Positions 4,900 through 25,146 are shown, counted from the first letter of the stretch. The stretch is DNA of 32,000 bases from Acaryochloris thomasi RCC1774 (GCF_003231495.1 NZ_PQWO01000005.1:240001-272000), one strand, 5' to 3'. Notes: generated from the sequence alone by a model not told the origin. Program-made: numbers and translations.

Positions 4900-5274
<375 letters not shown>

Positions 5275-8905: not shown

Positions 8906-9013
8906 GGGATCAAGCGATGCCTGCTGTCTGAAGCACTATAGTAGTATTGAGTACGGATTCTGGAGCAGGGTTGCTGCTGAGTCATTCACTAAAGGGACGA
9001 AGAGGGTCTAGCG

Positions 9014-9469
9014 ATGAATAGCTGTGTACTGATGGGTGAGATTATCAAAGCGCCAGAGCTGCGATTTACCCAAGACGGTCAAACTGCGATTGCAGAGATG
9101 ACGGTCCAGTTTCCAGCCATTCGTGCTGAAGATCCGATGGAGACGGTGAAGGTGGTGAGCTGGGGCAATATGGCGCAGCAGGTCCAAGAACAGTATCAGC
9201 AGGGCGACCAAGTTGTGATCGAGGGCCGTCTGACCATGAACAGCATTGACCGACCCGAAGGCTTTAAAGAGAAGGTTGCCGAGGTCACGGCTTCAAGAAT
9301 TCATCCTATGTCAATGAATGCTGTGACCACATCGGTGCCCAGTATGCCAACGACTGCTAGCCAAGGGCGTTCAGCACCTCCCGCAGTTGCTCAAACAGCG
9401 CCGCCGCAGGCTGCACCTCAAGCTGCGCCGCCAGTGGAAGAGCCGAACTATGATGATATTCCCTTCTAA
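9014..9469 (+). CDS. ssb: Single-stranded DNA-binding protein
   Basis: The OB-fold N-terminus is 'MNSCVLMGEIIKAPELRFTQDGQ'. It is followed by a Pro/Ala/Gln-rich linker and the canonical acidic tip 'DDIPF'. 151 aa. Confidence 0.92.
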   Translation: MNSCVLMGEIIKAPELRFTQDGQTAIAEMTVQFPAIRAEDPMETVKVVSWGNMAQQVQEQYQQGDQVVIEGRLTMNSIDRPEGFKEKVAEVTASRIHPMSMNAVTTSVPSMPTTASQGRSAPPAVAQTAPPQAAPQAAPPVEEPNYDDIPF

Positions 9470-9523
9470 ACCTTGTCCAAGGTTCACTCTGTGGGTGCAT
9501 TCCACTTTTGCAAATAGTTCTTG

Positions 9524-10804
9524 TCAAGTTCCGTTAGGCTGAGCGCGCTGACCAATATCGCGTCGGTAATAGCTCTCTTGAAACTGAATGGGTGATAGCG
9601 CTTTGTAGGATTTCTGAAGGGCATCCTCGAAGGTTTTTCCTACAGCGGTGACGGCCAATACTCTGCCGCCGCTGGTGATCAAGGTCTGCTCTTGTAGCTG
9701 AGTGCCTGCATGAAAGACGACTGCTCCGGTGGCTTCGGCTTCATCTAATCCTGTGATCGGGTAGTGCTTTTGGTAGGGACCTGGATAGCCTCCGGAGGCC
9801 ATGACAACACAGGCTGCAAATCCTATTTTCCATTCAATTTTGGGCATCTGAGCGAGCTTTTGCTCTGCGCAGGCGTTTAATAAGTCTGCAAGGGGCGTCT
9901 CTAAAAGTGGCAGGACTGCTTGTGTCTCTGGATCTCCGAATCGGCAGTTGAACTCAATCACCTTTGGCTGACCGTCAGGCGTAATGATTAAACCGGCATA
10001 TAGTACGCCGCGATAGTCGATCTGACGGCTTTTGAGGGCCTCAAGCGTTGGCTCTAGAACATCGGATTTAATTTGCTGAAGCAGTGACTCTGTGACCCAA
10101 GGGACGGGGGCATAGGCTCCCATTCCGCCTGTGTTGGGGCCGGTGTCACCTTCGCCAATAGGCTTGTGGTCTTGAGCTGGGAGGAGCGGTCGGATGGTTT
10201 GCCCATCAGTGAGGGCAAGAACGGAGACTTCTTGTCCGGTTAGGTACTCTTCGATCAGGATCTGAGATTCTGGCCCGAATTTCCCGGCAAAGACTTCGTT
10301 GATGGCGTCTAGAGCTGCTTCTAGAGTTAGGGCAACGGTGACGCCTTTTCCGGCGGCAAGACCATCGGCTTTAACGACAATGGGTGCGCCCTGTTCTTTG
10401 ACGTAGGCTGTGGCTGATGCTGCATCTGTGAAGGTGGCAGCTTTTGCGGTGGGGATGCCCGCCGATTCCATGAGGGCTTTGGCCCAGGATTTGCTGGACT
10501 CAATTTGGGCACCGGCTTGAGTGGGACCGAAGACGGCGATGCCTTGTTCATGCAAGGTGTCAGTGAGACCTGCCGCGAGGGGGAGTTCGGGACCAATGAC
10601 GACTAGGGCGATGTTTTTCTGTTTGGTGAAAGTTGCGATCGCATCAAAATCATCTGCATCAAGCGTCAAGTTCTCACAGTTTTTCAGCGCTGCCGTGCCA
10701 CCATTACCGGGAAGGCAGAACACCTGGTTAACCCTCGACGACTGCAGTAGCTTCCAGGCCAATGCATGTTCTCGACCGCCGCTGCCGACCACTAAAATCT
10801 TCAC
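9524..10804 (-). CDS. purD: Phosphoribosylamine-glycine ligase
   Basis: 'MKILVVGSGGREHALAWKL', 'VVKADGLAAGKGV' and 'EFNCRFGDPE' are PurD/ATP-grasp signatures. 426 aa. Confidence 0.95.
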   Translation of the reverse strand: MKILVVGSGGREHALAWKLLQSSRVNQVFCLPGNGGTAALKNCENLTLDADDFDAIATFTKQKNIALVVIGPELPLAAGLTDTLHEQGIAVFGPTQAGAQIESSKSWAKALMESAGIPTAKAATFTDAASATAYVKEQGAPIVVKADGLAAGKGVTVALTLEAALDAINEVFAGKFGPESQILIEEYLTGQEVSVLALTDGQTIRPLLPAQDHKPIGEGDTGPNTGGMGAYAPVPWVTESLLQQIKSDVLEPTLEALKSRQIDYRGVLYAGLIITPDGQPKVIEFNCRFGDPETQAVLPLLETPLADLLNACAEQKLAQMPKIEWKIGFAACVVMASGGYPGPYQKHYPITGLDEAEATGAVVFHAGTQLQEQTLITSGGRVLAVTAVGKTFEDALQKSYKALSPIQFQESYYRRDIGQRAQPNGT

Positions 10805-10963
10805 AAAACGCTCTCAATTGACGGTAAGACGGATTTCCTTCCTTTCTGGGGAGGAAATTGCCAAAATTGTGTAATGTAGAATACAAGTTGATTTTTGAAG
10901 ATCAGCCCATACTACTAAGCATAATCAAATCATATCTTTTATCCCCGTGGGGTTCGGAGGACA

Positions 10964-11800
10964 ATGTCTCTCTTCACCGGTTGTGCGCAATCGTTCCAGA
11001 AAATCGTGCGTCCCTGCCTTTTAGGCATTCCAATTGTTCTGTTAACAGCAGTTGTCGCGCGGCAATCCAGTCAGGTTCGTCACAGCTCAATACCAGACAG
11101 CCACAGCACTGAAGAGCATCAGCATCATGAGGCTGCTCATCAAGGCACCGGAGACATTCCCCACGAATTATCTTACGAGTTTTCTAAGCGCAATCATCCC
11201 CTTCTGTCTTTGCCGCCGAACCTTAAGCTAGAGCCAGCACTGCAGGAAATGATTCAGCAAACCGCAGCCCGTGAAGCAGCTCACCCCCGCGGAGTACCCG
11301 TTTTCAAGGCCGGTATCTCTGCCGAGTTTGGGATGCGACGCAACCCTTTCGGTAAAGGGCTGCACTTCCATGAGGGAATTGATCTGGTTCGCCCTCACGG
11401 AACGCCCGTTTATTCCACTGCCGATGGCATGGTGAAGCGCGCCAAGTCTTCTCGCATTAATGGCAACTATGTCGTCGTTGATCATGGCTACGGCAATAAA
11501 ACCCTCTATGCTCATCTGAGTCGGTATGTTGTCGCCCGCAATATGAAAGTCAAGCGCGGTCAGCTATTGGGGTATATCGGCAGTACGGGACGCTCCACTG
11601 GGCCCCACCTGCATTATGGTCTCTATCATCAAAACGAGCCAATCAACCCCTACGCCTATATGTACGATCTGCAGCCTACGCTGGCCGATGCCACCTACGC
11701 TTGCGGACGGTTTGTGCCTAAGAGCGTTGGGTCTGATTCTGTTCGATTGGCGCTCAGTCGAACCTGCACTCAGCCCGATATTCAGTCGCAGTTCGATTAA
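10964..11800 (+). CDS. M23 (LytM-type) metallopeptidase with N-terminal signal/anchor
   Basis: The HxxxD motif is 'FHEGIDL' and the HxH motif is 'GPHLHYGL'. 'GYIGSTGRSTGPHLH' is also present. The N-terminus is hydrophobic (LLGIPIVLLTAVVA). Confidence 0.9.
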   Translation: MSLFTGCAQSFQKIVRPCLLGIPIVLLTAVVARQSSQVRHSSIPDSHSTEEHQHHEAAHQGTGDIPHELSYEFSKRNHPLLSLPPNLKLEPALQEMIQQTAAREAAHPRGVPVFKAGISAEFGMRRNPFGKGLHFHEGIDLVRPHGTPVYSTADGMVKRAKSSRINGNYVVVDHGYGNKTLYAHLSRYVVARNMKVKRGQLLGYIGSTGRSTGPHLHYGLYHQNEPINPYAYMYDLQPTLADATYACGRFVPKSVGSDSVRLALSRTCTQPDIQSQFD

Positions 11801-11811
11801 TTGACGTAGGT

Positions 11812-13539
11812 TTGTTGCCCCGATTGCGCGTTTATAAAGCCTTAAGCTACATGGCTTGCGCCCTAGCTCTAGGGTCGCTCGTTTCGCTCGATGCTGCTGT
11901 CGCGCAGTCTACGCACAGTCAGCAAGGTATGGTGGCGTCTGCCCATCCGCTCGCGAGTCAGGCGGGTTTGTCGATGCTGCAACAGGGGGGGAACGCCGTT
12001 GATGCAGCTGTTGCAACGACATTAGCAATTTCAGTGGTGGAACCGTTCTCTGCCGGAATCGGGGGCGGCGGTTTTTTGCTGCTGCGATTGGCTGAGACGA
12101 ACGAGATTAGGGCGTTAGACTTTCGGGAAAAGGCTCCGCTCCAAGCAAACCGCGATCTTTATCTCGATCCTGAAGGACAGGTGCAGCCAGGAGCTAGCAC
12201 CAATGGTCATCTTGCGGTTGCTGTTCCTGGTACTGTCGCTGGGTTGTTTGAGATTCATCAAAAGTACGGAACGCTGTCCTGGTCGCAGGTGGTACGGCCT
12301 TCTATCTTCTTGGCTTCACAGGGGTTTACCGTTAGCAGTCGCCTCTCAAAAGCGATTCAGCGTCGCCAAGAGACCTTCCGTAAAAATCCGGCGGCGCGTC
12401 AGATTTTTCTGCCTCAGGATCAAGTCCCCCAAGCGGGTGATTTGTTGGTGCAGCGAGATTTGGCGCAAACGCTGAGATCGCTAGGGAAAGATCCGCAGAG
12501 CTTTTATACGGGCAAGATTGCGATGAACATTGCGGAGGATATGTCTCGCAACGGTGGCCTCGTGACGCTCAAAGATTTGAAATCCTATCGACCCACCTGG
12601 CGTGATCCTGTCTGTGGTCTATTCCAGCAGGCTCGAGTGTGCTCAATGCCCCCACCTTCTTCTGGTGGTGTTCATTTGTTGCAAATGTTGCAGATGGTCG
12701 AGAATCAAGATTTTCAGGATCGCTGGCATCATCCAGATATTCTGCATGTTTTGATAGAGGCGATGAAGATTGCCTATGCTGACCGAGCGACCTATCTCGG
12801 TGATCCTGATTTTGTCTCAGTGCCGACGGCGGAGTTGACGAGTCCAGCCTATACCCACCGGCGGCGACAAGAAATCCAGCTTCAGCGGGCGCGTTCAGCC
12901 TCTGAGGTCAAGGCTGCTGACCCTAGGGTTCTCGATTCGATTCGCCAGCAACAAGAGTCTAATGATACGAGCCATCTAACGGTCGTCGATAAAGATCGCA
13001 ATGCCGTTAGCCTCACGTTTACGATCAATCTTGGGTTTGGGGCGGGCGTTGTGGCTGAGGGGACCGGGATTGTTCTCAATAATGAGATGGATGATTTCGC
13101 GGCTGCTCCTGGAATTCCCAACGCTTTTGGACTGGTGGGGGGGGAGGCAAATGCGATCGCACCGGGTAAAATCCCGCTCTCTAGCATGACTCCAACCATT
13201 GTCACCGAGGGGGGCAAGCTCCGGTTGGCTGCCGGTGCTCCAGGCGGCAGCACCATTATCACGACGGTCCTGCAAATCTTGCTGAATGTGCTGGTGTATG
13301 GCCAAGATGCAGAGCAGGCGGTCACCTCGCCGAGACTGCATCACCAGTGGCGACCGGAAGCGCTGATGATAGAGCGTTGGGGCTTTGATTATGCCACGGT
13401 GCAGGACTTGCAGGACCGAGGCCACTCAATTCGCATGGGCTCAGGGTGGGGCAATGCCAATCTAATTTTGGTCAAGCCAGATGGCAGTTTAGAAGGTGCT
13501 GCAGATCCGAGAGGGGAAGGGACAGCATTTGGTCATTAA
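11812..13539 (+). CDS. ggt: Gamma-glutamyltranspeptidase
   Basis: The autoprocessing and catalytic Thr context is 'NDTSHLTVVDKDRNAVSLTFTIN'. 'PPSSGG' and 'GAPGGSTIITTVLQ' are also present, as is a signal-like N-terminus. The track start at 11812 is TTG. The Met in 'SYMACALALG' is an alternative start. Confidence 0.92.
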   Translation: MLPRLRVYKALSYMACALALGSLVSLDAAVAQSTHSQQGMVASAHPLASQAGLSMLQQGGNAVDAAVATTLAISVVEPFSAGIGGGGFLLLRLAETNEIRALDFREKAPLQANRDLYLDPEGQVQPGASTNGHLAVAVPGTVAGLFEIHQKYGTLSWSQVVRPSIFLASQGFTVSSRLSKAIQRRQETFRKNPAARQIFLPQDQVPQAGDLLVQRDLAQTLRSLGKDPQSFYTGKIAMNIAEDMSRNGGLVTLKDLKSYRPTWRDPVCGLFQQARVCSMPPPSSGGVHLLQMLQMVENQDFQDRWHHPDILHVLIEAMKIAYADRATYLGDPDFVSVPTAELTSPAYTHRRRQEIQLQRARSASEVKAADPRVLDSIRQQQESNDTSHLTVVDKDRNAVSLTFTINLGFGAGVVAEGTGIVLNNEMDDFAAAPGIPNAFGLVGGEANAIAPGKIPLSSMTPTIVTEGGKLRLAAGAPGGSTIITTVLQILLNVLVYGQDAEQAVTSPRLHHQWRPEALMIERWGFDYATVQDLQDRGHSIRMGSGWGNANLILVKPDGSLEGAADPRGEGTAFGH

Positions 13540-13559
13540 TGTATAAATACGGCAGCTTT

Positions 13560-15323
13560 CTATTGTATAAACGGCTGGAGATCAAAGCTGTATAACGCTC
13601 CGTGTTGACCAGACCAAGTCGCCGCAATTAGCTGAGATTGATGGGATGCGATCTCACTCACAACGTCTTGATTGCCCACAGGTAAATTCAGGTGTCTGAG
13701 CAAATCTCCTGACTCGTTAATTAAGGCAACGCCCCCCGTTTGATTTGCCAATAAATAGCCCCAAGGCGTCGCAACACCAAAGGTCGGAGACAGCGGTAGA
13801 GCAATCTGCTTGATCCGCAGCGGGTTGAGGGTGATCCAAAAACTGGCCTCAGCCGCTAGGGCCAAAACTTGATAGGGATGCGTCTGACTTTGAATTAGCT
13901 GGTGTATTGGTCGAGGCAGTCGGCAATAGTCAAACGTATTGCCTCGGCGGTTGAATAGCCGCAAGCACACCCCTTGAGCTTCAGGAATTGCCATGATGCC
14001 ACGGCGATCATCCAGCGTTAGCCAGTGAGTTGGCGATCCGGCCACGCTGCATCGGGGCTGCAGCGTTGGTAAGCGCAGAATCTGGCATTGGCCCCCTAGA
14101 CGACTGCTTTCAGTCGCGACCCCCAACCATTCTCCGCCCGATTCGACTGTCATCTTTAATGATTCAGACTGCCAAGTGCCTAAAGTGTGAACGGAGCTGT
14201 CTTGAGCTGCCTCATTTTCAGACGCTTTGGGTCGCCAGCAGAGTGCGTGAGCAGTGGCTCGCTGTGTTCTAATAAAAAGTCCCTGGGGGCTGCTCCACAT
14301 TTGCATAACCCGTCCCTGAGTTATGGGGTACTGTGTGGGTTCATCAAAGCCTGCGGGTGTAATGGATTGGCAAGTAACCTGTGAATCTAGGCCACAGTAG
14401 AGTTGATCCGCATCTGTTGCGAGGGCCAAAACAGTCGCAGCTAAAGCTGTTGTATGCAGGACCGGCAGTTCTGAAGGTGGTGAAATTGGAGTGGGGCGTT
14501 CTTCCGCCGCCGCTGCTAGGCGGAGAAGCTTCAGCATTGACTGGGCAGAGTCGAAGCGTTTCTGAGGTAGCTTTTGCGTCGCTTGTCGAATAATATCGCT
14601 TACAACCGTCGGGATGGTGTCAGGAATCTCGAGGAATTGATTGAGATGGGCCGTCATCAGATCGCCCGGCGTGCCGGAAAAGGGACGATGTCCGAGCACT
14701 AGCTCATAGAGCAGTACGCCCGCGGCATAAAAATCGGAGGCTGGAGAGTAGCTGCTGTAAAATCGCTCGGGAGCCATGTAGGCTGGGGAGCCGGTGTCGC
14801 CTCGTCGAGTTTCAGAGTCTGGTTCAGCCAGCAGTCGAGCGACGCCAAAGTCAGAGAGATGAGCCATCCAGCCAGTGGCCGTCAACGTCAGCAAGACATT
14901 CTCTGGTTTCAGGTCGCAATGGACAATTCCGCGTTGATGGGCATGGGCAAGACCCTCTACGACGTCAATCACAAGCTGAAGAGATTGTTTGAGATTTAGT
15001 TGCCCAGGCGTATCGATGAGCTGTCGCAGCGTTCCACCTTCACAGTAGTCCATGACCAGGTAGCGACCCGACTTACTGTATTCGAGAGTATGAAACGCAA
15101 CGATGTTTGGGTGCTGCAAGCTCGCCAGCAGGTTGAGTTCATGCAGGAATCGTGGTGTTGTTAACCGGCTATTATCTAGCTGCTTGAGCGCGACAATCTT
15201 TCCTGTCTGGCGGTGGATGCCGCAGAACACTCGACCAAATTGGCCTTGGCCGATGGGTCCTAAAACGCGATATTTTGGACCGGCAATATTTTTATCTATG
15301 GTGCCTAGCGGGCAAGTTTTCAT
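13560..15323 (-). CDS. spkG: Hanks-type Ser/Thr protein kinase with a C-terminal domain of about 300 aa and unknown function. It occupies the position of Synechocystis slr0152 (SpkG).
   Basis: The Gly loop is 'GQGQFGRV' and the Lys motif is 'VALKQL'. The catalytic loop is 'HCDLKPENVL', followed by 'SDFG' and 'SPAYMAPE'. The orthology call rests on synteny as the last gene of the pap-like operon, not on a search. Confidence 0.85.
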   Translation of the reverse strand: MKTCPLGTIDKNIAGPKYRVLGPIGQGQFGRVFCGIHRQTGKIVALKQLDNSRLTTPRFLHELNLLASLQHPNIVAFHTLEYSKSGRYLVMDYCEGGTLRQLIDTPGQLNLKQSLQLVIDVVEGLAHAHQRGIVHCDLKPENVLLTLTATGWMAHLSDFGVARLLAEPDSETRRGDTGSPAYMAPERFYSSYSPASDFYAAGVLLYELVLGHRPFSGTPGDLMTAHLNQFLEIPDTIPTVVSDIIRQATQKLPQKRFDSAQSMLKLLRLAAAAEERPTPISPPSELPVLHTTALAATVLALATDADQLYCGLDSQVTCQSITPAGFDEPTQYPITQGRVMQMWSSPQGLFIRTQRATAHALCWRPKASENEAAQDSSVHTLGTWQSESLKMTVESGGEWLGVATESSRLGGQCQILRLPTLQPRCSVAGSPTHWLTLDDRRGIMAIPEAQGVCLRLFNRRGNTFDYCRLPRPIHQLIQSQTHPYQVLALAAEASFWITLNPLRIKQIALPLSPTFGVATPWGYLLANQTGGVALINESGDLLRHLNLPVGNQDVVSEIASHQSQLIAATWSGQHGALYSFDLQPFIQ

Positions 15324-15371
15324 TATTCAGGTTTGAGTTGATTCGTTGCCCGCTAGAGCAAGGTCTGCGGC

Positions 15372-16313
15372 TTAATCGAACAAGCTACCAATCACGAGGG
15401 GCTCGTCGCTCTGACTTTCAGATGGCGCTTCGGGCTCCATCTCAACGGCGGCAGGCGCGAGTTCATGCTGCTCTTGGCTCAAGCTCATGGCTTCATCATA
15501 ATGCTCTAAATCACCTGCTTCAAAGTAAAGCTTAGCGGCGATGCGCAAATCGGCCACGGCGTGCTTCTTCTCGTCAATTGTGCCTCGCAGTGCACCCCGC
15601 TGAAAATAAGCGTCTGCATAGTCGGGATCTAGGGCAATGGCTTGGGAGTAATCGTCAATGGCAATGCGCTGGTCGTCTAGGCGACAAAGGCTTCCTCTGA
15701 CCAATCCCCTGCGATAGTAAAGGGTTGCATCTCTGGGCGTCGCGCGGATGATTTGGGTAAATAAATCAATTTGGTGGAGCTGCTCTAAAGCAGTGGCTAG
15801 GCTCTGTTCTTTCTCTCTGAGACTATCAGAGTCTGCCTGCAGTTCTTCCGTTTTCTTGACCAGTGCGACTTCGTGCTCTTCGAGGATCTCTAGCTTTTCG
15901 TTCATGGTCTCCAACGCGTTTTGTTGGGCCTGATTTTGCTTGGTGATGGCTTCGATGCTGAGCTGTTTGTCTTCGTCCTGCTGGGTAAGCGTTGCGATCG
16001 CATCTTTACGCTTTTGACCGTTTTGAGTCAGGGTTTCAATCTGAGCCTTCCGTTCTTGATCCTGCTGTGAGATCTGGGCAATCATCAGTTGACGCACCTG
16101 CCCCGCAGACTCAGTGAGACGGCGGCGGTTTGCCAAATGAAGCGTGGCCGTGAGCGACAGCGGAATGGACGCAAAGACGACTTGGTTGGTCACTGCCGAG
16201 GCAATGGCGCCACCCACAGAGCCCACCACTGAGATCATCTCGACATGGTTAAGCCAGTGGGACCGTTTGGCCTCTGCTTGAGCATTCAATAGGTGTTGCA
16301 TAATCTTGTTCAA
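15372..16313 (-). CDS. Membrane-anchored coiled-coil/TPR protein (slr0151-like position)
   Basis: 313 aa. A hydrophobic stretch spans aa 25-60 (ISVVGSVGGAIASAVTNQVVFASIPLSL). A Gln-rich coiled coil with units of about 14 aa spans aa 83-180. TPR-like repeats span aa 193-275 ('AIALDPDYADAYFQRG'). The tail is acidic. Confidence 0.85.
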   Translation of the reverse strand: MNKIMQHLLNAQAEAKRSHWLNHVEMISVVGSVGGAIASAVTNQVVFASIPLSLTATLHLANRRRLTESAGQVRQLMIAQISQQDQERKAQIETLTQNGQKRKDAIATLTQQDEDKQLSIEAITKQNQAQQNALETMNEKLEILEEHEVALVKKTEELQADSDSLREKEQSLATALEQLHQIDLFTQIIRATPRDATLYYRRGLVRGSLCRLDDQRIAIDDYSQAIALDPDYADAYFQRGALRGTIDEKKHAVADLRIAAKLYFEAGDLEHYDEAMSLSQEQHELAPAAVEMEPEAPSESQSDEPLVIGSLFD

Positions 16314-16337
16314 TCCCTTGAAAAGTTGATAAAGGTT

Positions 16338-16805
16338 TTAGCTCAACAGCGCTTGGCTGAGCTGGAGGGCTGGCGTCATTTGCTTAGCTTCTTCTGGTGT
16401 GAGCTGTTGCTCCATGACCTTGGGCGTCACTTGGCTCACGATTTGTGAGGTCTGCTGGTCTTGGAAAGCGTTGATGAGGGTGCGTTGCCAGAGCAGCATG
16501 CTGTCCCGCAGGCGGTCGAGGTCGCTAACCAGCATGGCGGCGGCAGAGCTTTTGAGCAGATGTTTGCGATCGCGACGGCAGGTTTCGACCATGTCCCGAG
16601 TGCCCTTATGGAAAACGCGGGCATTCTTTTCCAAAGCCTTCTCCTCGATCTGATCCATGATCTGCTCTTCAGCATCCCGAATCTTTTCGTAGGCGCTGAT
16701 GCGATGATCGGCAGACTCTAGATAGTCCTTGATAAACTGGAGTTCTGTAGCGGTGGCAAAGCGTCCATCTGCATCCAGACTGACCCGTGCAAGTTGTGTC
16801 AACAT
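16338..16805 (-). CDS. Phycobiliprotein-fold (PF00502-like) protein, not a canonical phycobilisome subunit (slr0149-like position)
   Basis: 155 aa. 'DADGRFATATELQFIKDYLESADHRISAYEKI' aligns by eye with allophycocyanin alpha '[32 protein letters not shown]'. 'ETCRRD' aligns with the chromophore-Cys motif 'TCLRD'. Confidence 0.8.
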   Translation of the reverse strand: MLTQLARVSLDADGRFATATELQFIKDYLESADHRISAYEKIRDAEEQIMDQIEEKALEKNARVFHKGTRDMVETCRRDRKHLLKSSAAAMLVSDLDRLRDSMLLWQRTLINAFQDQQTSQIVSQVTPKVMEQQLTPEEAKQMTPALQLSQALLS

Positions 16806-16834
16806 AATTCAAGATCCCCTTACGAATGTGGTGC

Positions 16835-17317
16835 CTATACGGCTTGTGACTGATTAAGATACTGCGAGACTTCAGAGCGCGTATCTTCAAGCTGGCTAAT
16901 CATTGACCGCGTGATCAATTTGCCTTCCTCTACTAAGACCTGACCATTGAGCGGATGGAGAATATTTTGTTCAGCCCGTCGGCCAATCAAATCTTCGACA
17001 TCAGCCATATCGCTGAGGTACATCCCCGACGGTAGCTCGATGACCACGCCTTCGCCCAGAACGCGTGTTTGGCAGGCGAGACGTGACATGCGATTGCAGG
17101 TGGTGATCACCTCTAAAGATCGCTGCTCACGACGGTTCATGGGCGACAAGCTCTCCATGCCGTCTTTGATGTAGACGTGACAGGTGGCGCACATGCCACG
17201 GCCCCCGCATTCATGCAGCACCTTGAGATCGTGCTGCAATAACCCCGACAACAAATTATCGTTCGTTGCGATTGCGGTCTCCTGATTGATAGGGTCCAGC
17301 TTGACAAGCTTCGCCAC
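16835..17317 (-). CDS. 2Fe-2S ferredoxin with a C-terminal extension of about 60 aa (slr0148/Fed5-like position)
   Basis: 160 aa. The Cys ligand pattern is C37-x5-C43-x2-C46...C82 ('ECGGRGMCATCHV' ... 'LACQ'), which is adrenodoxin-like spacing. The extension covers aa 100-160. Confidence 0.88.
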   Translation of the reverse strand: MAKLVKLDPINQETAIATNDNLLSGLLQHDLKVLHECGGRGMCATCHVYIKDGMESLSPMNRREQRSLEVITTCNRMSRLACQTRVLGEGVVIELPSGMYLSDMADVEDLIGRRAEQNILHPLNGQVLVEEGKLITRSMISQLEDTRSEVSQYLNQSQAV

Positions 17318-17386
17318 CTTAGATGCTCCTTTTACATGAGTAGTGAGTGAAAGAGGCCCTTGATGGGCCTTTAGACGGGTTTAACC

Positions 17387-18802
17387 CTACGCCCCTAGAT
17401 TTTCTAGCTCATCAAGACCGGCAAGACGCTCGAGATCTGCGAGTTCAGCTAGATTGCCCAGTGCTTCCAGAGAATCTGGAGAGAGATCGGACTCCTGTGA
17501 CTCGTCCTGTGGCTCTGCCACCATTTCTGGCATAGAGACATCAGATGCCTCTTCAGTCATGCTGCCCAGCTGTTCTAATTCAACGGGCGCGGCTGTGTCT
17601 GTGATTTCTCCAGACATCTCCTGTGGCTCTTCCGTCATCTCCGGTGCAGAGATATCAGTGGCCTCTTCTGTGATGGCGTCAGGCTGTTCTGCCTCGGCAG
17701 GCGCGGCTGTGTCCGCGATTTCCTCAGATATGTCTGTGGAAAAGTCTAGACTGTCGAGATCGGGTAGGTCTGCCAGCATTTCTGATGCTTCTACCGAATC
17801 TAGTGTGGGTGGCTCTTCTGTGGCCGCCTCCGGCTCAGCTGGTGCAGGCATCTCAGCCATCTCTATGGCTGTCTCCGGCTCTGGCATGAAGCTTTCTGCA
17901 GCGGCAATGACTGGTTCTTCGATGGCGGCGATCTCAGCGGGTGCTTCTGCCTCAGCCATAGATGAGGGGACCATATCTGCTTCTGCCATCTCGACCGAGT
18001 CCTCTGGCTCCGGCATTAGGCTCTCTGCTGCGGCATCAGGCATCTCGGCGGGTGTCTCGATGCTCTCCATCGATGCCTCAGGCATCAGGCTCTCGGGTGA
18101 TGGCTCGGATGCGGGCTCAGAAATCTCAGCTTGATCGAGTCCTAGGCGCATCATGATCGTGTCATGGTCCTGCTGCTCTTCAATGCCGGTTTCCGCTACT
18201 TTCAGTCGTTCTTCTAGACCTAAGATAAAGGTATTCTCAGGTGCACCCATCGATTCACAGGTGGTTTGCACGCAGTGCAGTTCCTGGCCGGTGAGCTGAC
18301 TAAAAAACGTGCTGAGTAGGCCCGCTTCTGCATGACAGGTGGGACGTTCTGCGGGACTCTCGTCGCTCTGCTGAACTGCAGCAAAGGCAGAATTTTCCAC
18401 TGTTGCGATAATGAAGCCTTGGGCATAGTGTTTGAACTCTAGGTTCAAATTGCCCCAGCCATAGGTTTTCCAGCACTGCTTGAGGCACTGGAGAAACTCC
18501 ACCATCTCCATTTCAGCCAAGGGCTTGTCATAGTAGGTGCTGATCTCTTCAGCGAAGCGGCGATAAAAATATTTGCCCCACCAATGTCCGCACTGGAACA
18601 TGACGAGTCCTGCAGATGGACCCACTTCCTCTCTTAGGCTGCTGTAGAGCGCCTGCAGTAGAGTGTCGGGAAGGGCAATGAGCCGGTTGCCCTGGCGATT
18701 TTCGAGCAGACCTAGCTCAAAGTCTCCCTGTACGTAGGCATCGGGGGCAAAATAATTGCCGGGTAAACGGTCTTTGTTAAGTAATTCAGCAACTGCAATC
18801 AT
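17387..18802 (-). CDS. V4R (4-vinyl-reductase-type) domain protein with a repetitive acidic tail of about 250 aa (slr0147-like position)
   Basis: 471 aa. The first 205 aa or so carry the V4R hallmark 'TCHAEAGLLSTFFSQLTGQELHCVQTTCESMGAPENTF'. Residues 222-471 are Glu/Asp/Pro/Ala/Met-rich with internal repeats. Confidence 0.88.
   Translation of the reverse strand: MIAVAELLNKDRLPGNYFAPDAYVQGDFELGLLENRQGNRLIALPDTLLQALYSSLREEVGPSAGLVMFQCGHWWGKYFYRRFAEEISTYYDKPLAEMEMVEFLQCLKQCWKTYGWGNLNLEFKHYAQGFIIATVENSAFAAVQQSDESPAERPTCHAEAGLLSTFFSQLTGQELHCVQTTCESMGAPENTFILGLEERLKVAETGIEEQQDHDTIMMRLGLDQAEISEPASEPSPESLMPEASMESIETPAEMPDAAAESLMPEPEDSVEMAEADMVPSSMAEAEAPAEIAAIEEPVIAAAESFMPEPETAIEMAEMPAPAEPEAATEEPPTLDSVEASEMLADLPDLDSLDFSTDISEEIADTAAPAEAEQPDAITEEATDISAPEMTEEPQEMSGEITDTAAPVELEQLGSMTEEASDVSMPEMVAEPQDESQESDLSPDSLEALGNLAELADLERLAGLDELENLGA
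17501..17728 (-). repeat. Tandem 114-bp (38-aa) coding repeat, two copies, inside the acidic tail
   Basis: SEEIADTAAPAEAEQPDAITEEATDISAPEMTEEPQEM is followed by SGEITDTAAPVELEQLGSMTEEASDVSMPEMVAEPQDE. At DNA level, GGCGCGGCTGT starts at both 17586 and 17700, a spacing of 114 bp. Confidence 0.85.
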
Positions 18803-18829
18803 GATGGTGTTTTGTTCTCCGGTATGGGA

Positions 18830-19309
18830 TTAGCCTGCGGTCACGAGGTCGTTACCCACCAGGATCTGCTGGGTTTGAGTTAGATAAGGCTGGATTAAAG
18901 TCCACTGATGGGCAGACAGGACTTCTTTGAGGCGAGCTTCAAGGAGTTGGCTGAGCTGATATTCGAGATCTACAAGCTGATGGGCCTGTACGACATCGGT
19001 GAGCCATTCCAGGAGTCGGTGTCGCAGGAATTCTGGGTTGTTGCTCAGCATCGCCATCGCGCTGTAGCGAAGGGCTGAGATCCAGTGCTGTAGAGCTTTT
19101 TCTTGACGCTGAGCATTTTCGCTAGGGCAGGTGGCCTCAAGCTGATCGGCAATCGGTTGCCAGATCTGTTGTTCTTTGTCTCGCAGCAGTTCATAGGTCT
19201 GCAGCCGCTGCTCTAGAGCGCTGACGTGCTGTTTAAAGTCAGTGATCTCAGCGTTTGTGAGGTAATGGTCTTCTGCGTCCTGCAGAAATTGTTGGAAGTC
19301 AGAGTGCAT
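18830..19309 (-). CDS. Second phycobiliprotein-fold protein, lacking the canonical chromophore Cys (slr0146-like position)
   Basis: 159 aa. 'AEDHYLTNAEITDFKQHVSALEQRLQTYELL' matches the N-terminal helix pattern of phycobiliproteins. The position equivalent to C-x-R-D reads 'KALQHW'. Confidence 0.75.
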   Translation of the reverse strand: MHSDFQQFLQDAEDHYLTNAEITDFKQHVSALEQRLQTYELLRDKEQQIWQPIADQLEATCPSENAQRQEKALQHWISALRYSAMAMLSNNPEFLRHRLLEWLTDVVQAHQLVDLEYQLSQLLEARLKEVLSAHQWTLIQPYLTQTQQILVGNDLVTAG

Positions 19310-19317
19310 AATGGCCC

Positions 19318-19743
19318 CTAAAATAAATCAGAGAAGTCAGAGAGATTTAAGTCACTGCTGTCAACGGGTGGGTCGACGGCGTTGAGTTTGGGGACTGCCG
19401 CAATTTCAGGCTGGGCTTCCCAAACAAATAGGTTGAAAAATTTGTTGACGGGTAGGGTCGCGTTCAAGGCGATGGAACTGATGACACTGGAACTGATAAC
19501 AGTCTGGGTTGGGTTGGTTGGGTTGGCTGCTTTGGGTGCCTTGACGGGCTGCAGTTTGCCATTCCAGTTGCTGTGACTCAGAAAGTCTTGGACGGTTTGA
19601 CTCTGCCAAGATTGAGGTGCGTGCTGTCGGGGTGTGTGCTGTCGGGGTGTGTTTCGGGCTGGGGCTTTGGGTAATGTTTTGCCCTGCCAGTTGCACTGCC
19701 GGAGGAACTCTTGAACGGTGGAAAATTGCCAGTCACGGCTCAT
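19318..19743 (-). CDS. Small protein with a repeated W..TVQ(E/D)FL...NW.GK motif (slr0145-like position)
   Basis: 141 aa. 'WQFSTVQEFLRQCNWQGK' and 'WQSQTVQDFLSHSNWNGK' are separated by a Pro/Arg/Gln linker that contains the tandem PRQHTPRQHA. The C-terminus is acidic ('DLNLSDFSDLF'). The start overlaps the upstream stop in an ATGA arrangement (19740-19743). Confidence 0.7.
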   Translation of the reverse strand: MSRDWQFSTVQEFLRQCNWQGKTLPKAPARNTPRQHTPRQHAPQSWQSQTVQDFLSHSNWNGKLQPVKAPKAANPTNPTQTVISSSVISSIALNATLPVNKFFNLFVWEAQPEIAAVPKLNAVDPPVDSSDLNLSDFSDLF

Positions 19744-20453
19744 GACAGGTATTCTCCGTTGTGCAGACGCTTTTCAATGTCGCGCATGCTGGCACCTTCG
19801 TTTTGCCAAAAAGTAGCGGCGTCGATGCGATCGCGTTTGCCTAAAAGAAACTTGCAGTAAGTTTCGCCCATGGCGTAGCACTGTAGCTCGATACAGCTCA
19901 TGTCTTTTTGGACTAAGTTGCTAAAGAACCCTGCAAACAAACCGGCATAGATATGGCAGACGGGCTTACCCACATCTCCCAAGGTGCGGGCCACGGCAGA
20001 GTCAAAAATATTGATGAACATGAATCCATTTTTCTGGTCGCTGAGATCCACATCCCAGTTGCCCCAGCCTTGGCTTGTAAACGGCCACCACCAGGCTTCT
20101 AGAGCAAAGGATGGATTGCACTGCCGCAAACCCATGCCATAGTCTTTTTCAAACCAGCTCTGGAAGAAGGCGGCATCACGCTCTCCCCAAGCTTTACCAA
20201 TGTTGTACATGATAACGCTGGAGGCACTCCCAACTTCTTGCTCTAGCCCTTCAATTAAAGCTAGAATAAAGTCCTCGCTCGCTAAAATATTGCGAGACTC
20301 GTGCCAGTCATTAATTGTCCCCTGCTCTGGCTGGAAGGTGAAGAAGTCTGAAAAGCTGTAGTGATTCCGCTTGGATGGATATCTTTGCTTGTGTGATACC
20401 GGCTGGTCGAGACTCACCCCAAGAGGGGCTACTTCAGTGGGTGTAAAAACCAT
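19740..20453 (-). CDS. V4R (4-vinyl-reductase-type) domain protein, first gene of the operon (slr0144-like position)
   Basis: 237 aa. 'VCHIYAGLFAGFFSNLVQKDMSCIELQCYAMGETYCKFLL' is the typical V4R C-terminal Cys/Gly pattern. Confidence 0.88.
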   Translation of the reverse strand: MVFTPTEVAPLGVSLDQPVSHKQRYPSKRNHYSFSDFFTFQPEQGTINDWHESRNILASEDFILALIEGLEQEVGSASSVIMYNIGKAWGERDAAFFQSWFEKDYGMGLRQCNPSFALEAWWWPFTSQGWGNWDVDLSDQKNGFMFINIFDSAVARTLGDVGKPVCHIYAGLFAGFFSNLVQKDMSCIELQCYAMGETYCKFLLGKRDRIDAATFWQNEGASMRDIEKRLHNGEYLS

Positions 20454-20473
20454 CTGTCACTGATCCTATTGTC

Positions 20474-20498
20474 CTAAGTAAACTGATGCTTTACTTAG
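20474..20498 (-). promoter_or_regulatory. Perfect 9-bp dyad/hairpin in the leader of the V4R operon
   Basis: Arms CTAAGTAAA (20474-20482) and TTTACTTAG (20490-20498) flank a 7-nt loop. The element ends 20 nt upstream of the start codon at 20453 and just upstream of an AGGA. Confidence 0.4.
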
Positions 20499-20531
20499 CA
20501 TTCCCACTTCAAAGGCAATCTCTTAGCTTTG

Positions 20532-20549
20532 TCGCAAAGGAATTTGCGA
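20532..20549. promoter_or_regulatory. Perfect palindrome TCGCAAA-GGAA-TTTGCGA in the operon's upstream region
   Basis: The arms are 7 bp with a 4-bp spacer. TTATAC-N8-TTATAC direct repeats lie about 30 bp away, at 20581-20600. The binding factor is unknown. Confidence 0.3.
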
Positions 20550-20761
20550 ATTTATAAGAATACTCAATGTATATTGTGTTTTATACGCTGTACGTTATAC
20601 ACAGAATCCCCTGTCCGCTTGGGTTCCGTTTGTTCTTGCGATCGCAGGTGGACAAAACAAAATCTGATTAACTGTGAGCTTCATCCTTCTTAGATTCTCG
20701 TTTTAATGGCGCAGGTGCCGTTCCGCTGAGGCGTCTTGAAGCCCCTGGGATGCTCTCCCTG

Positions 20762-21664
20762 TTATTGCTGCTGAGCCAGAATCAGCTTCAGTATGATCTG
20801 CAGATCGGCCAGCCGTTCAAGCGTAGTGTCAGACCAGTTCGGGTCCGGCTGAGGGGAATGTAGGTAAAGGGTTCCCCAGAGCTGCTGTTCTGCCAGAATT
20901 GGCACCACCACCAGCGCTCTTGTTTGTAGCGCTTGGAGATTATCCCAGAGTGCTGGGGGTGCAGGATCCTTCGTCAGGCTCAATTGATCAAGGGCTAATA
21001 TCTCTCCCTGCTGCAGCCTGTGCTGCCAATCTGGCTGCAAGGCTAAATCAAAGTTGGATGGATTTTCGAGGGACGGAAGTGCTGCTGATTCAACCCATCG
21101 TGAAGTCTGCTGCTGCCAAAGATGAATACGATGGGTCAACGTGACGGACTGCAGAGCATTGACTAATTGCTGAAGCTGTTCCCACAACTCTTGGTCATGA
21201 TTATGGAGACTTTGGCTCAGGCACTGGGTCCAGCCCTCTAGTTTGCTGCACGTGGCCTCGGCGGTGATCAGAGCTTGGTGGGTCGCCAACAGCCTCCGGA
21301 CTCGCTCTGAAAGAACGGGCCAATTAATCGGCTTGGTAATGTAGTCGGTGGCCCCGACAGCAAAGGCCTGATCGACGGAGGCTTGATCATCCAGCACCGT
21401 GAGAATCAGCAGCGGAACGCGATCGCCCCCTGGTAGCTGACGGAGACGCTGACAGCAGTTGAAGCCATCCATTCCTGGCATGACGGCATCCATTAGCACT
21501 AAATTAGGCTGACTGATCCGATATTCTGCCAGCCCCTGCTCGCCATCTTTGGCTTCCACCACTTGATAGCCTTCTGTTGACATGGCGAGATTCAAGAGTC
21601 CACGGGTAGAGCGATCGTCGTCAATAATCAGAACGACGGGAGAGGCTGGGGCTGGCGCGGTCAT
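20762..21664 (-). CDS. Response regulator, REC plus C-terminal GAF-like domain
   Basis: 300 aa. REC motifs are 'VVLIIDDD', 'LVLMDAVMPGMDG' and 'ATDYITKPI'. The C-terminal 150 aa or so have a GAF-like pattern ('ALVVVPILAEQQLWGTLYLHS...WSDTTLERLADL'). Confidence 0.88.
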   Translation of the reverse strand: MTAPAPASPVVLIIDDDRSTRGLLNLAMSTEGYQVVEAKDGEQGLAEYRISQPNLVLMDAVMPGMDGFNCCQRLRQLPGGDRVPLLILTVLDDQASVDQAFAVGATDYITKPINWPVLSERVRRLLATHQALITAEATCSKLEGWTQCLSQSLHNHDQELWEQLQQLVNALQSVTLTHRIHLWQQQTSRWVESAALPSLENPSNFDLALQPDWQHRLQQGEILALDQLSLTKDPAPPALWDNLQALQTRALVVVPILAEQQLWGTLYLHSPQPDPNWSDTTLERLADLQIILKLILAQQQ

Positions 21665-21675
21665 GCTTCGTTTCC

Positions 21676-25131
<3,456 letters not shown>

Positions 25132-25146
25132 TGAGTGATCGGATCT

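What the first reader, a model, noticed from the sequence alone, without database searches (positions are those of the whole stretch)
16338..19309. Alpha/beta-like pair of non-canonical phycobiliprotein-fold proteins; one keeps the chromophore C-x-R-D motif and one has lost it
Two small genes (16338-16805 and 18830-19309) align by eye with the phycobiliprotein globin-like fold. The shared features are the N-terminal '(D/E)..R(F/Y)...(E)(L/I)..(I/F)K' helix pair and the central helix.

- The 155-aa protein has 'ETC76RRD' (Cys codon at 16578-16580). This lies exactly where allophycocyanin and phycocyanin have the bilin-attachment 'TC81LRD'/'KC84ARD'.
- The 159-aa paralogue reads 'KALQHW' at that position, so Cys is replaced by Ala, Arg by Gln and Asp by His.

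Canonical phycobiliproteins work as alpha-beta heterodimers. A pair in which only one member could bind bilin covalently, encoded next to V4R proteins and a ferredoxin rather than next to linker or lyase genes, suggests a bilin sensor or carrier rather than an antenna.
Basis: partly seen in the sequence, partly recalled or inferred. Interest (0 to 1): 0.62.

Follow-up and report, generated by a model that had tools for sequence, protein, structure and literature searches.

The report
Known phycobiliprotein-like pair in pap operon
The two small genes really do encode phycobiliprotein-fold proteins, one with and one without the bilin-attachment motif. They match Slr0149 and Slr0146 of the already described cyanobacterial slr0144-slr0152 ("pap") operon, so this is a correct reading of a known system whose biochemical job is still unsolved.

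Summary

- **Fold.** Both minus-strand ORFs (155 aa at 16338-16805, 159 aa at 18830-19309) pass Pfam PF00502. Their AlphaFold models superpose on allophycocyanin subunits.
- **Motif.** Cys76-Arg78-Asp79 of the 155-aa protein aligns with the ApcA Cys81 C-x-R-D motif. The 159-aa paralogue has Ala72-Gln74-His75 at those columns.
- **Not new.** The eight co-directional genes are V4R, 141-aa protein, PBP-like, V4R, 2Fe-2S ferredoxin, PBP-like, TPR and Ser/Thr kinase. This reproduces the Synechocystis slr0144-slr0152 operon without fed4 (slr0150).
- **Prior literature.** It already calls these proteins apcA-like and apcB-like (2014), phycobiliprotein-related (2018) and "cyanobacterial BBAGs" carrying the CXRD motif (Rockwell et al. 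2023). In Synechocystis, Slr0149-GFP co-purifies Slr0146 and both V4R proteins.
- **What I added, from 76 related loci.**
  - The gene order is strongly conserved.
  - The Cys is present in about 76-79% of Slr0149-type proteins, while Arg-Asp is nearly invariant.
  - In 11 of 40 paired comparisons neither protein has the Cys.
  - Seven loci lack the Slr0149-type gene.
  - Thermosynechococcus has two Slr0149-type copies and no Slr0146-type copy.

A non-antenna, bilin-handling role is plausible, but bilin binding by any cyanobacterial member is untested in the papers I could read. Interest is low to moderate.

The parts
19740..20453 (-). V4R-domain protein, 237 aa (Slr0144-type, 'V4Ra'); first gene of the operon
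   Evidence: Pfam V4R, 79.7 bits. It holds the same first position in related loci.
19318..19743 (-). 141-aa protein with no Pfam family (Slr0145 position). Its start overlaps the V4Ra stop by 4 nt.
   Evidence: No Pfam hit. phmmer homologues sit in the same slot in most related loci.
18830..19309 (-). 159-aa phycobiliprotein-fold protein without the C-x-R-D motif (Slr0146-type, 'apcB-like', 'PBPb')
   Evidence: PF00502, 42.3 bits. AlphaFold pLDDT 86.9. Foldseek matches phycobiliprotein subunits. 79 homologues found.
19085..19096 (-). Codons for Ala72-Leu73-Gln74-His75, the columns equivalent to C-x-R-D
   Evidence: Family pattern at these columns: A/S/C, L, K/R/Q, H/N/Q.
17387..18802 (-). V4R-domain protein, 471 aa (Slr0147-type, 'V4Rb'). 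The N-terminal ~215 aa are the conserved part; a long acidic Pro/Glu/Ala-rich tail follows.
   Evidence: Pfam V4R, 51.2 bits, at residues 148-195. Sequence. Orthologues elsewhere are about 220 aa.
16835..17317 (-). 2Fe-2S ferredoxin, 160 aa (Slr0148/Fed5-type, adrenodoxin/ISC-like)
   Evidence: Pfam Fer2, 40.4 bits. NCBIfam fdx_isc, 53.6 bits, below its cut-off. 160-aa orthologue in Stanieria.
16338..16805 (-). 155-aa phycobiliprotein-fold protein with C-x-R-D (Slr0149-type, 'apcA-like', cyanobacterial BBAG, 'PBPa')
   Evidence: PF00502, 57.9 bits. AlphaFold pLDDT 91.5. Foldseek TM up to 0.87 to allophycocyanin chains. 54% identical to the Acaryochloris marina 'ApcA' proteins that PMC6002478 equates with slr0149.
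16569..16580 (-). Codons for Cys76-Arg77-Arg78-Asp79, the putative bilin attachment and contact motif
   Evidence: Conservation: Cys 84/107, Arg78 104/107, Asp79 107/107.
15372..16313 (-). TPR protein with a coiled-coil N-terminal half, 313 aa (Slr0151-type)
   Evidence: Pfam TPR_11 and TPR_17. Conserved position in related loci.
13560..15323 (-). Ser/Thr protein kinase, 587 aa (Slr0152/SpkG position)
   Evidence: Pfam Pkinase, 178 bits. Conserved position in related loci.

Best explanation
**What it is.** The two genes match Synechocystis slr0149 (155 aa, with C-x-R-D) and slr0146 (159 aa, without it). They sit in an eight-gene, co-directional copy of the slr0144-slr0152 'pap' operon that lacks fed4 (slr0150). 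Both proteins are non-antenna paralogues of phycobiliproteins. Rockwell, Martin and Lagarias (2023) named this lineage cyanobacterial bilin biosynthesis-associated globins (BBAGs). They traced it to bacterial clusters of heme oxygenase, pre-PcyA bilin reductase, an Fe-S protein, two V4R proteins and a BBAG.

**How it most likely works (inferred).**
- The 155-aa protein takes up a phytobilin, probably phycocyanobilin, in the pocket on helix E. Asp79 and Arg78 contact the pyrrole nitrogens and a propionate. [quoted passage not shown]
- The 159-aa protein cannot attach bilin at that site. It serves as a phycobiliprotein-like partner, possibly holding a ligand non-covalently through its Lys/Arg/Gln and His/Asn/Gln residues.
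- Both associate with the two V4R proteins, and probably with the adrenodoxin-type ferredoxin, in one complex.
- That complex buffers, hands over or reports tetrapyrrole or bilin status during photosystem assembly and repair. The downstream TPR protein and Ser/Thr kinase provide the link to photosystem II and the regulation.

**Shown versus inferred.** Shown here: fold, motif alignment, operon synteny and family conservation. Shown elsewhere: co-purification in Synechocystis, and bilin binding by non-cyanobacterial BBAGs. Inferred: bilin binding by this protein, heterodimer geometry and physiological role.

**Confidence.** The figure given (0.7) blends about 0.95 for the identity with about 0.4 for the mechanism.
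For: **Fold and motif.**

**Operon.**
- Eight genes lie on one strand, from a 4-nt overlap to gaps of at most 69 nt.
- Stanieria PCC 7437 has V4R, 122 aa, PBP, V4R, Fer2, PBP, Fer2, TPR, kinase.
- The same order recurs across the 76 related loci examined.
- Cassier-Chauvat and Chauvat (PMC4284462) list this as 'cluster e': 4VRa, apcb-like, 4VRb, fed, apca-like, fed, TPR. Cluster e' adds the kinase, and e'' is e' without fed4, which is this window.

**Link to slr0149.**
- The 155-aa protein is 54% identical (E 3e-46) to the Acaryochloris marina 'ApcA' proteins.
- PMC6002478 identifies those proteins as slr0149 homologues sitting in the slr0144-0152 context.

**BBAG concept.**
- PMC10151467 describes the concept, the CXRD motif in some cyanobacterial BBAGs, lyase-independent bilin binding by BBAG-1 and BBAG-3, and quantum yields of 3-7%.
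- A Deltaproteobacteria relative (TNE49175.1, motif CTRD) lies in a cluster of Fer2, V4R, 156-aa protein, PBP, V4R, ParA-like protein, kinase, 166-aa protein and heme oxygenase.

**Complex.** Slr0149-GFP pulls down Slr0146 (7 PSM), Slr0144 (6) and Slr0147 (6) (PMC9880817 Table S6).

**Conservation.**
- Asp79 is invariant and Arg78 is present in 104 of 107 homologues.
- Both families keep a basic residue at Cys+9: Lys/Arg85, and Arg81 in 79 of 79.
- An acidic residue lies in helix X in both families. I recall these as the Arg93/Asp13 alpha-beta interface pair of phycobiliproteins (my knowledge, not tested here).
Against: - No experiment that I could read shows bilin on any cyanobacterial BBAG.
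- Cys76 is replaced by Trp, Ala or Ser in 20 of 107 homologues, and by other residues in 3 more. In 11 of 40 paired comparisons neither protein has the Cys. Covalent attachment is therefore dispensable in many lineages.
- The pair is not obligatory. Seven of 43 complete loci lack the Slr0149-type gene. Thermosynechococcus has two Slr0149-type genes and no Slr0146-type gene.
- Co-purification does not prove a direct alpha-beta-type dimer. I could not run a heterodimer model.
- In Synechocystis the operon and its ferredoxins are dispensable (PMC4284462). Its link to photosystem II may come from the adjacent slr0150-0152 genes (PMC10151467).
- I could not retrieve the Synechocystis protein sequences. 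The match to slr0146 and slr0149 rests on synteny and on a transitive link through Acaryochloris.
Confidence: 0.7

Rival explanations
1. The proteins are apoprotein scaffolds. They keep the phycobiliprotein fold but carry no tetrapyrrole in vivo. They act purely as structural or regulatory adaptors within the V4R, ferredoxin, TPR and kinase assembly-factor complex.
For: - The Cys is absent from 21% of Slr0149-type proteins and from about 90% of Slr0146-type proteins.
- Neither member has the Cys in 11 of 40 paired comparisons.
- No chromophore has been reported for Slr0149 or Slr0146 in the papers read.
Against: - Asp79 is invariant and Arg78 nearly invariant even in Cys-less members. This is hard to explain without a ligand in the pocket.
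Confidence: 0.2
2. One or both proteins bind a cyclic tetrapyrrole (heme, or a chlorophyll precursor) rather than a bilin. The His or Asn that replaces Asp in the 159-aa protein would contact the metal, and the V4R partners would deliver the pigment.
For: - The globin-like fold.
- His75 sits at the Asp87-equivalent position over the centre of the pocket.
- V4R domains are inferred to bind chlorophyll precursors (PMC13326532).
- The operon has been linked to photosystem assembly.
Against: - His75 is present in only 52% of 201 family members and His110 in 62%. The two are uncorrelated (65/59/40/37), so there is no conserved axial ligand and no bis-His site.
- The 155-aa family keeps the bilin-type R-D pair.
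Confidence: 0.08
3. They are genuine light-harvesting allophycocyanin subunits, as several database records name them, and they assemble into a phycobilisome core.
For: - Source names include 'allophycocyanin' and 'allophycocyanin subunit alpha ApcA'.
- The best PDB sequence and fold matches are ApcA, ApcD and ApcB.
Against: - NCBIfam equivalog scores are 32 bits or less, against cut-offs of 225-275.
- Identity to solved phycobiliproteins is only 13-23%.
- The paralogue has no attachment Cys.
- The operon holds V4R, ferredoxin, TPR and kinase genes and no linker or lyase genes.
- PMC6002478 argues that the 'apcA' annotation is erroneous.
- BBAG relatives fluoresce weakly.
Confidence: 0.02

Closest known systems
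Synechocystis sp. PCC 6803 Slr0149 and Slr0146 in the slr0144-slr0152 'pap' operon (Wegener et al. 2008; Cassier-Chauvat and Chauvat 2014, 'cluster e')
   Same: - Same gene order and strand: V4R, small protein, PBP-like, V4R, adrenodoxin-type ferredoxin, PBP-like, TPR, Ser/Thr kinase.
- Same protein sizes as the Stanieria copy of the full operon.
- One 'apcA-like' and one 'apcB-like' protein.
   Different: - No fed4 (slr0150) gene between the 155-aa gene and the TPR gene; this is the published variant e''.
- The second V4R protein carries an acidic tail of about 250 residues.
- The kinase is 587 aa, against 268 aa in Stanieria.
Bilin biosynthesis-associated globins BBAG-1 and BBAG-3 of heterotrophic bacteria (Rockwell, Martin and Lagarias 2023; Protein Sci 2026, PMC13446030)
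   Same: - Phycobiliprotein/globin fold and the CXRD motif.
- Clustering with two V4R proteins and an Fe-S protein.
- Expected lyase-independent bilin binding and weak fluorescence.
   Different: - This cluster has no heme oxygenase and no pre-PcyA reductase.
- It has a second, Cys-less paralogue, plus TPR and kinase genes.
- Bilin binding has not been tested for the cyanobacterial branch.
Allophycocyanin alpha and beta subunits (ApcA, ApcB, ApcD, ApcF)
   Same: - Whole-chain fold including the N-terminal X-Y helical hairpin (TM up to 0.87).
- C-x-R-D on helix E in the 155-aa protein.
- The LR[Y] motif nine to ten residues further along.
   Different: - 13-23% identity.
- The loop before helix E is 4 residues shorter.
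- No linker or lyase gene context.
- The partner lacks the Cys.
- Scores are far below the equivalog cut-offs.

Membership tests
Phycobiliprotein fold superfamily (Pfam PF00502) | Sequence match above the Pfam gathering score | tested here: met
   57.9 and 42.3 bits against a cut-off of 22.2.
Phycobiliprotein fold superfamily (Pfam PF00502) | Globin-like helical fold with the N-terminal X-Y hairpin, superposable on solved phycobiliproteins | tested here: met
   AlphaFold pLDDT 91.5 and 86.9. Foldseek TM 0.66-0.87 for the 155-aa model and 0.53-0.67 for the 159-aa model, over nearly the full chain.
Phycobiliprotein fold superfamily (Pfam PF00502) | Cys of C-x-R-D on helix E aligned with Cys81/84 | tested here: met
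   Met for the 155-aa protein. Not met for the 159-aa protein, which has Ala72 there.
Light-harvesting allophycocyanin, phycocyanin or phycoerythrin subunit | Score at or above an NCBIfam equivalog cut-off (ApcA 270, ApcB 228, CpeA 225, CpeB 275) | tested here: not met
   Best scores are 32.1 bits (155 aa) and 21.3 bits (159 aa).
Light-harvesting allophycocyanin, phycocyanin or phycoerythrin subunit | Genomic association with partner subunit, linker or lyase genes | tested here: not met
   The neighbours are V4R, Fer2, TPR, kinase and two-component genes.
Cyanobacterial BBAG / slr0144-slr0149 core cluster (Rockwell et al. 2023) | Globin or phycobiliprotein paralogue encoded together with two distinct V4R proteins and an Fe-S protein | tested here: met
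   The arrangement is conserved across related loci.
Cyanobacterial BBAG / slr0144-slr0149 core cluster (Rockwell et al. 2023) | Phylogenetic placement in the cyanobacterial BBAG clade, apart from light-harvesting phycobiliproteins | tested here: inconclusive
- Indirect support: 54% identity to the Acaryochloris 'ApcA' proteins that PMC6002478 equates with slr0149.
- The family-B profile finds only 357 proteins at E <= 0.001 among 1.84 billion cluster representatives.
- The more distant matches include a Deltaproteobacteria protein from a cluster that also holds heme oxygenase, V4R and Fer2 genes.
Cyanobacterial BBAG / slr0144-slr0149 core cluster (Rockwell et al. 2023) | Binds a bilin | not testable with these tools
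   Needs reconstitution. In the papers read, only BBAG-1, BBAG-2 and BBAG-3 were tested.
slr0144-slr0152 'pap' operon | Full gene order with the TPR (Slr0151) and Ser/Thr kinase (Slr0152) genes downstream | tested here: met
   It matches published cluster e''. fed4 is absent, and only 24 nt separate the 155-aa gene from the TPR gene.
slr0144-slr0152 'pap' operon | Physical complex of the PBP-like and V4R proteins | not testable with these tools
   Shown for Synechocystis by AP-MS; not testable for this organism.

The most novel reading that the evidence does not exclude
The Cys-less 159-aa protein is not a dead copy. It would be a conserved non-covalent tetrapyrrole-binding partner using its Lys/Arg/Gln-His/Asn/Gln-Trp motif. 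Together with the bilin-binding 155-aa protein, the two V4R proteins and the adrenodoxin-type ferredoxin, it would form a hand-off or sensing device. That device would couple phycocyanobilin or tetrapyrrole availability to photosystem II assembly and repair through the adjacent TPR protein and SpkG-type kinase. It would be a surviving, repurposed remnant of the ancestral bilin-synthesis machine.
Probability: 0.15. Interest if true: 0.6.

Novelty: already known. Interest (0 to 1): 0.25.

Why it matters
This operon is one of the more conserved 'unknown function' clusters tied to photosystem biogenesis in cyanobacteria. According to Rockwell et al. [quoted passage not shown]

Direct evidence that the Slr0149-type protein binds bilin, and an answer to what the Cys-less partner does, would clarify two questions. 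One is how phycobiliproteins arose. The other is how bilin or tetrapyrrole status is linked to photosystem assembly.

This window adds no new kind of system. It supplies one more copy. My survey of related loci adds family-level facts:
- The Cys is dispensable, while Arg-Asp is nearly invariant.
- The pairing of the two proteins is frequent but not obligatory.

These facts can guide the choice of proteins for such experiments.

Tried and rejected
- **Bis-His heme site in the 159-aa family.** Rejected. His75 is 52% and His110 62% conserved among 201 sequences, and the two are uncorrelated.
- **Compensation.** I tested whether Slr0146-type proteins gain the Cys when Slr0149-type proteins lose it. 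They do not: 0 of 11 such pairs.
- **Alternative conserved Cys in the 159-aa protein.** Cys61 of this window is Phe in most homologues. Column 83 is Cys in 46% of the family but Ser in this window.
- **Genome-collection scans.** The scan with the family-A alignment failed because no stretch was conserved enough. The single-protein scan found only 2 close loci. I therefore could not fetch Synechocystis PCC 6803 itself, and synteny came from the look-up of encoding contigs and the metagenome scan instead.
- **Wegener et al. 2008.** The paper is not held in the library.
- **Asp13/Arg93 salt bridge.** A literature search for this phycobiliprotein interface pair returned nothing. That point rests on my own recollection.
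- **Promoter and terminator scan of 13000-21000.** Nothing above shuffled expectation.
- **Deltaproteobacterial cluster.** Its 156-aa neighbour is not Slr0146-like (hhalign probability 0.1). Its 588-aa kinase matches the window's kinase only over the catalytic domain (32% identity).


Full report
**1. The observation**

Both ORFs are present on the minus strand exactly as described: 16338-16805 (155 aa) and 18830-19309 (159 aa).

Family and fold:
- Each matches Pfam PF00502 (Phycobilisome protein) well above the gathering score of 22.2. The scores are 57.9 bits (E 1.5e-15) and 42.3 bits (E 9.4e-11), each over nearly the whole profile.
- Sequence search of the PDB gives allophycocyanin alpha chains as best hits for the 155-aa protein (E 2e-5).
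- For the 159-aa protein the best PDB hits are ApcF and far-red ApcA (E 0.007-0.01).
- AlphaFold2 models built on family alignments are confident: pLDDT 91.5, pTM 0.84 and pLDDT 86.9, pTM 0.81.
- The 50 matches listed by Foldseek for each model are all phycobiliprotein structures. TM is 0.66-0.87 for the 155-aa model and 0.53-0.67 for the 159-aa model. The alignments span the whole chain, including the N-terminal helical hairpin.

The motif:
- The Cys76 codon is at 16580-16578, within 'VETCRRDR'.
- phmmer places 'ETCRRD' on ApcA 'ATCLRD'.
- In the paralogue, 'EKALQHWI' lies at 19102-19079.
- The alignment to ApcF and a profile-profile alignment of the two families (probability 99.1, E 8e-19) both put Ala72/Gln74/His75 opposite Cys/Arg/Asp.

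**2. What it is**

The two genes sit in a run of eight co-directional genes with spacing from a 4-nt overlap to a 69-nt gap:

| Coordinates | Product |
|---|---|
| 19740-20453 | V4R protein, 237 aa |
| 19318-19743 | 141-aa protein, no Pfam family |
| 18830-19309 | PBP-like protein, 159 aa |
| 17387-18802 | V4R protein, 471 aa, with a long acidic tail |
| 16835-17317 | 2Fe-2S ferredoxin, 160 aa |
| 16338-16805 | PBP-like protein, 155 aa |
| 15372-16313 | TPR protein, 313 aa |
| 13560-15323 | Ser/Thr kinase, 587 aa |

This is the gene order of the Synechocystis PCC 6803 slr0144-slr0152 operon, minus slr0150.
- Cassier-Chauvat and Chauvat (PMC4284462) describe it as 'cluster e'. It contains a 4-vinyl reductase-like protein, a protein with homology to allophycocyanin beta, a second 4-vinyl reductase, a ferredoxin, a protein similar to allophycocyanin alpha, a second ferredoxin and a TPR protein. 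Cluster e' adds the kinase. Cluster e'' is e' without fed4, which is the arrangement seen here.
- Stanieria PCC 7437 carries the full nine-gene version with near-identical protein sizes.
- The 155-aa protein is 54% identical (E 3e-46) to the Acaryochloris marina 'ApcA' proteins. Partensky et al. (PMC6002478) showed these to be slr0149 homologues lying among slr0144-0148 and slr0151-0152 homologues, not true ApcA.
- I could not fetch the Synechocystis sequences themselves. The scan of the genome collection returned only two close relatives. The match therefore rests on synteny and this transitive link.

**3. What the literature already says**

- Wegener et al. 2008 named the operon 'pap' (photosystem II assembly proteins). 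I know this paper only through citations, because it is not held in the library.
- Xu et al. (PMC9880817) describe Slr0144-Slr0149 as carrying putative bilin-binding, V4R and 2Fe-2S domains. In their Table S6, Slr0149-GFP co-purifies Slr0146 (7 PSM), Slr0144 (6) and Slr0147 (6).
- Rockwell, Martin and Lagarias (PMC10151467) designate slr0149-type proteins 'cyanobacterial BBAGs'.
  - They state that some of these carry the phycobiliprotein CXRD motif.
  - They show that BBAG-1 and BBAG-3 bind several bilins in E. coli without lyases.
  - These proteins have quantum yields of only 3-7% and are photoinert.
  - The authors say the function of cyanobacterial BBAGs is unknown and non-essential.
  - They note BBAG duplications within clusters.
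- A 2026 follow-up (PMC13446030) characterises BBAG-3 further, but again no cyanobacterial member.

The fold, the motif, the V4R/ferredoxin context and the 'not an antenna' idea are therefore all in print.

**4. What I could add**

I fetched 76 related loci (L001-L076) and classified their ORFs against the eight proteins of this window.

- **Gene order.** V4Ra, small protein, PBPb, V4Rb, ferredoxin, PBPa, TPR, kinase is strongly conserved.
- **Family A (Slr0149-type).** Among 107 homologues, Asp79 is invariant and Arg78 is present in 104. Cys76 is present in 84, replaced mainly by Trp (10), Ala (7) or Ser (3). In the metagenomic loci the counts are 35 Cys, 10 Trp and 1 Tyr.
- **Family B (Slr0146-type).** Among 201 non-identical sequences:
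  - The Cys-equivalent column is Ala 85, Ser 54, Cys 20, Val 17.
  - The Arg-equivalent column is Lys 114, Arg 32, Gln 21.
  - The Asp-equivalent column is His 105, Asn 46, Gln 24.
  - The next residue is Trp in 157.
  
  The family motif is thus a degenerate [A/S/C]-L-[K/R/Q]-[H/N/Q]-W. It still offers a basic and a hydrogen-bonding side chain to the pocket.
- **Paired states.** Of 40 A/B comparisons on shared contigs, 26 have the Cys in A only, 3 in both and 11 in neither. None has it in B only, so the second protein does not compensate.
- **Pairing is not universal.**
  - In 43 loci the PBPa slot is bracketed by both the ferredoxin and the TPR gene.
  - Thirty-six of them have the gene and 7 lack it. 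For 6 of the 7, tblastn finds no PBPa-like sequence anywhere in the locus. In L012 it detects only the PBPb paralogue.
  - Thermosynechococcus NK55a has a reduced cluster of one V4R gene and two A-type genes, both with C-x-R-D, and no B-type gene.
- **Possible interface residues.**
  - Both families keep a basic residue nine positions after the Cys column: Lys/Arg85 in A, and Arg81 in 79 of 79 in B.
  - Both also keep acidic residues in the first helix.
  - From memory, these correspond to the Arg93/Asp13 pair of the phycobiliprotein alpha-beta interface. I could not confirm this in the literature library.
- **Size and reach of family B.**
  - A full-library profile search finds only 357 proteins at E <= 0.001 among 1.84 billion cluster representatives, and 62 at E <= 1e-30.
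  - Below the family proper is a third group that scores about equally against both family profiles and carries [C/G]-x-[R/Y/Q]-D...LRY.
  - This group includes Thermostichus proteins and a Deltaproteobacteria MAG protein.
  - The Deltaproteobacteria protein lies in a locus with Fer2, V4R, a 156-aa protein, the PBP-like protein, V4R, a ParA-like protein, a 588-aa kinase, a 166-aa protein and heme oxygenase. This is the kind of BBAG cluster that Rockwell et al. describe.

**5. How it most likely works**

Shown:
- Two phycobiliprotein-fold paralogues are encoded in one operon with two V4R proteins and an adrenodoxin/ISC-type ferredoxin.
- The A-type protein has an intact bilin-contact triad.
- In Synechocystis the counterparts co-purify.

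Inferred:
- The 155-aa protein binds a phytobilin, probably phycocyanobilin, autocatalytically at Cys76. Arg78 and Asp79 make the contacts, as they do in phycobiliproteins and as found for BBAG-1 and BBAG-3.
- The 159-aa protein cannot attach bilin at that site. It acts as a phycobiliprotein-like partner, with or without a non-covalent ligand.
- The complex buffers, transfers or reports tetrapyrrole or bilin status during photosystem assembly and repair. The TPR protein and the kinase link it to photosystem II and to regulation.

I put the identity at about 0.95 and this mechanism at about 0.4.

Rivals:
- Chromophore-free scaffolds (0.2). This is favoured by the dispensable Cys and disfavoured by the invariant Asp.
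- Cyclic-tetrapyrrole binders (0.08). The bis-His idea failed, because His75 and His110 are poorly conserved and uncorrelated.
- True antenna subunits (0.02). This is excluded by NCBIfam scores of 32 bits or less against cut-offs of 225-275 and by the gene context.

**6. Verdict**

However, the object is the known slr0144-slr0152 operon with its known phycobiliprotein-like pair. Near-identical proteins (97% and 94%) are already deposited from a MAG, annotated as 'allophycocyanin' and 'phycobilisome protein'.

- Novelty: already known.
- Interest: 0.25. It is kept above the floor because no cyanobacterial member has been shown to bind bilin and the Cys-less partner is unstudied. The family-level statistics above could direct that experiment.

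Noticed in passing
window 17387-18802 (-), residues ~215-471: The second V4R protein carries an acidic Pro/Glu/Ala-rich, internally repetitive C-terminal tail of about 250 residues. Orthologues are about 220 aa in Stanieria and most metagenomic loci. In the related locus L002 the same gene is even longer (4936-7419, about 827 aa). The extension therefore appears lineage-specific.
   Followed up: partly
window 19318-19743 (-): The 141-aa protein in the Slr0145 position has no Pfam or NCBIfam family. It contains two copies of a 'TVQ(E/D)FL...NW.GK' motif separated by a Pro/Gln-rich stretch. Homologues sit in the same slot in most related loci.
   Followed up: partly
L019-L022, L024, L025, L027 (metagenomic loci): In the loci that have lost the Slr0149-type gene (ferredoxin directly followed by TPR), the Slr0146-type protein has also lost the otherwise conserved Trp76 and His/Asn75 (motif V/I-L-R-Q-A/S/G). 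This hints that these residues matter only when the partner is present. The loci look closely related, so it may be a single evolutionary event.
   Followed up: partly
L003 / L004 (Thermosynechococcus sp. NK55a, CP006735.1) 6701-8471: A reduced cluster holds one V4R gene followed by two Slr0149-type genes, both with C-x-R-D. It has no Slr0146-type gene and no second V4R, ferredoxin, TPR or kinase gene nearby.
   Followed up: partly
L077 (Deltaproteobacteria-type contig, Logan SRR8389941_918) 6091-12888: - **Cluster.** A non-cyanobacterial cluster encodes Fer2, V4R, a 156-aa protein, a PBP-like protein (CTRD motif), V4R, a ParA-like ATPase, a 588-aa Ser/Thr kinase, a 166-aa protein and heme oxygenase.
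- **Kinase.** The kinase is almost the same length as the window's 587-aa kinase. It aligns only over the catalytic domain (32% identity), so a kinase may be an older companion of this cluster than assumed.
- **Upstream gene.** The 255-aa protein upstream has no Pfam hit and could be a divergent bilin reductase.
   Followed up: partly
window 20762-27429 (-): Three genes lie directly upstream on the same strand: a response regulator with a C-terminal GAF domain (300 aa), a 1151-aa hybrid histidine kinase (FHA, GAF, HisKA-HATPase, REC, Hpt) and a 760-aa NACHT NTPase. A 308-nt gap separates the response-regulator gene from the first V4R gene. I did not check whether this signalling module is conserved next to the operon elsewhere.
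   Followed up: no
L057 6001-7506; protein P0247 (426 aa): Some Slr0146-type proteins are much longer, about 500 and 426 aa. They have the phycobiliprotein-like domain at the N-terminus followed by an uncharacterised extension.
   Followed up: no
L006 / L007 4522-5627 and 7755-8860: Some loci carry two tandem Slr0149-type genes, one with Trp and Lys in place of Cys and Arg (RWRKD) and one with the Cys (ICQRD). This suggests subfunctionalisation after duplication.
   Followed up: no
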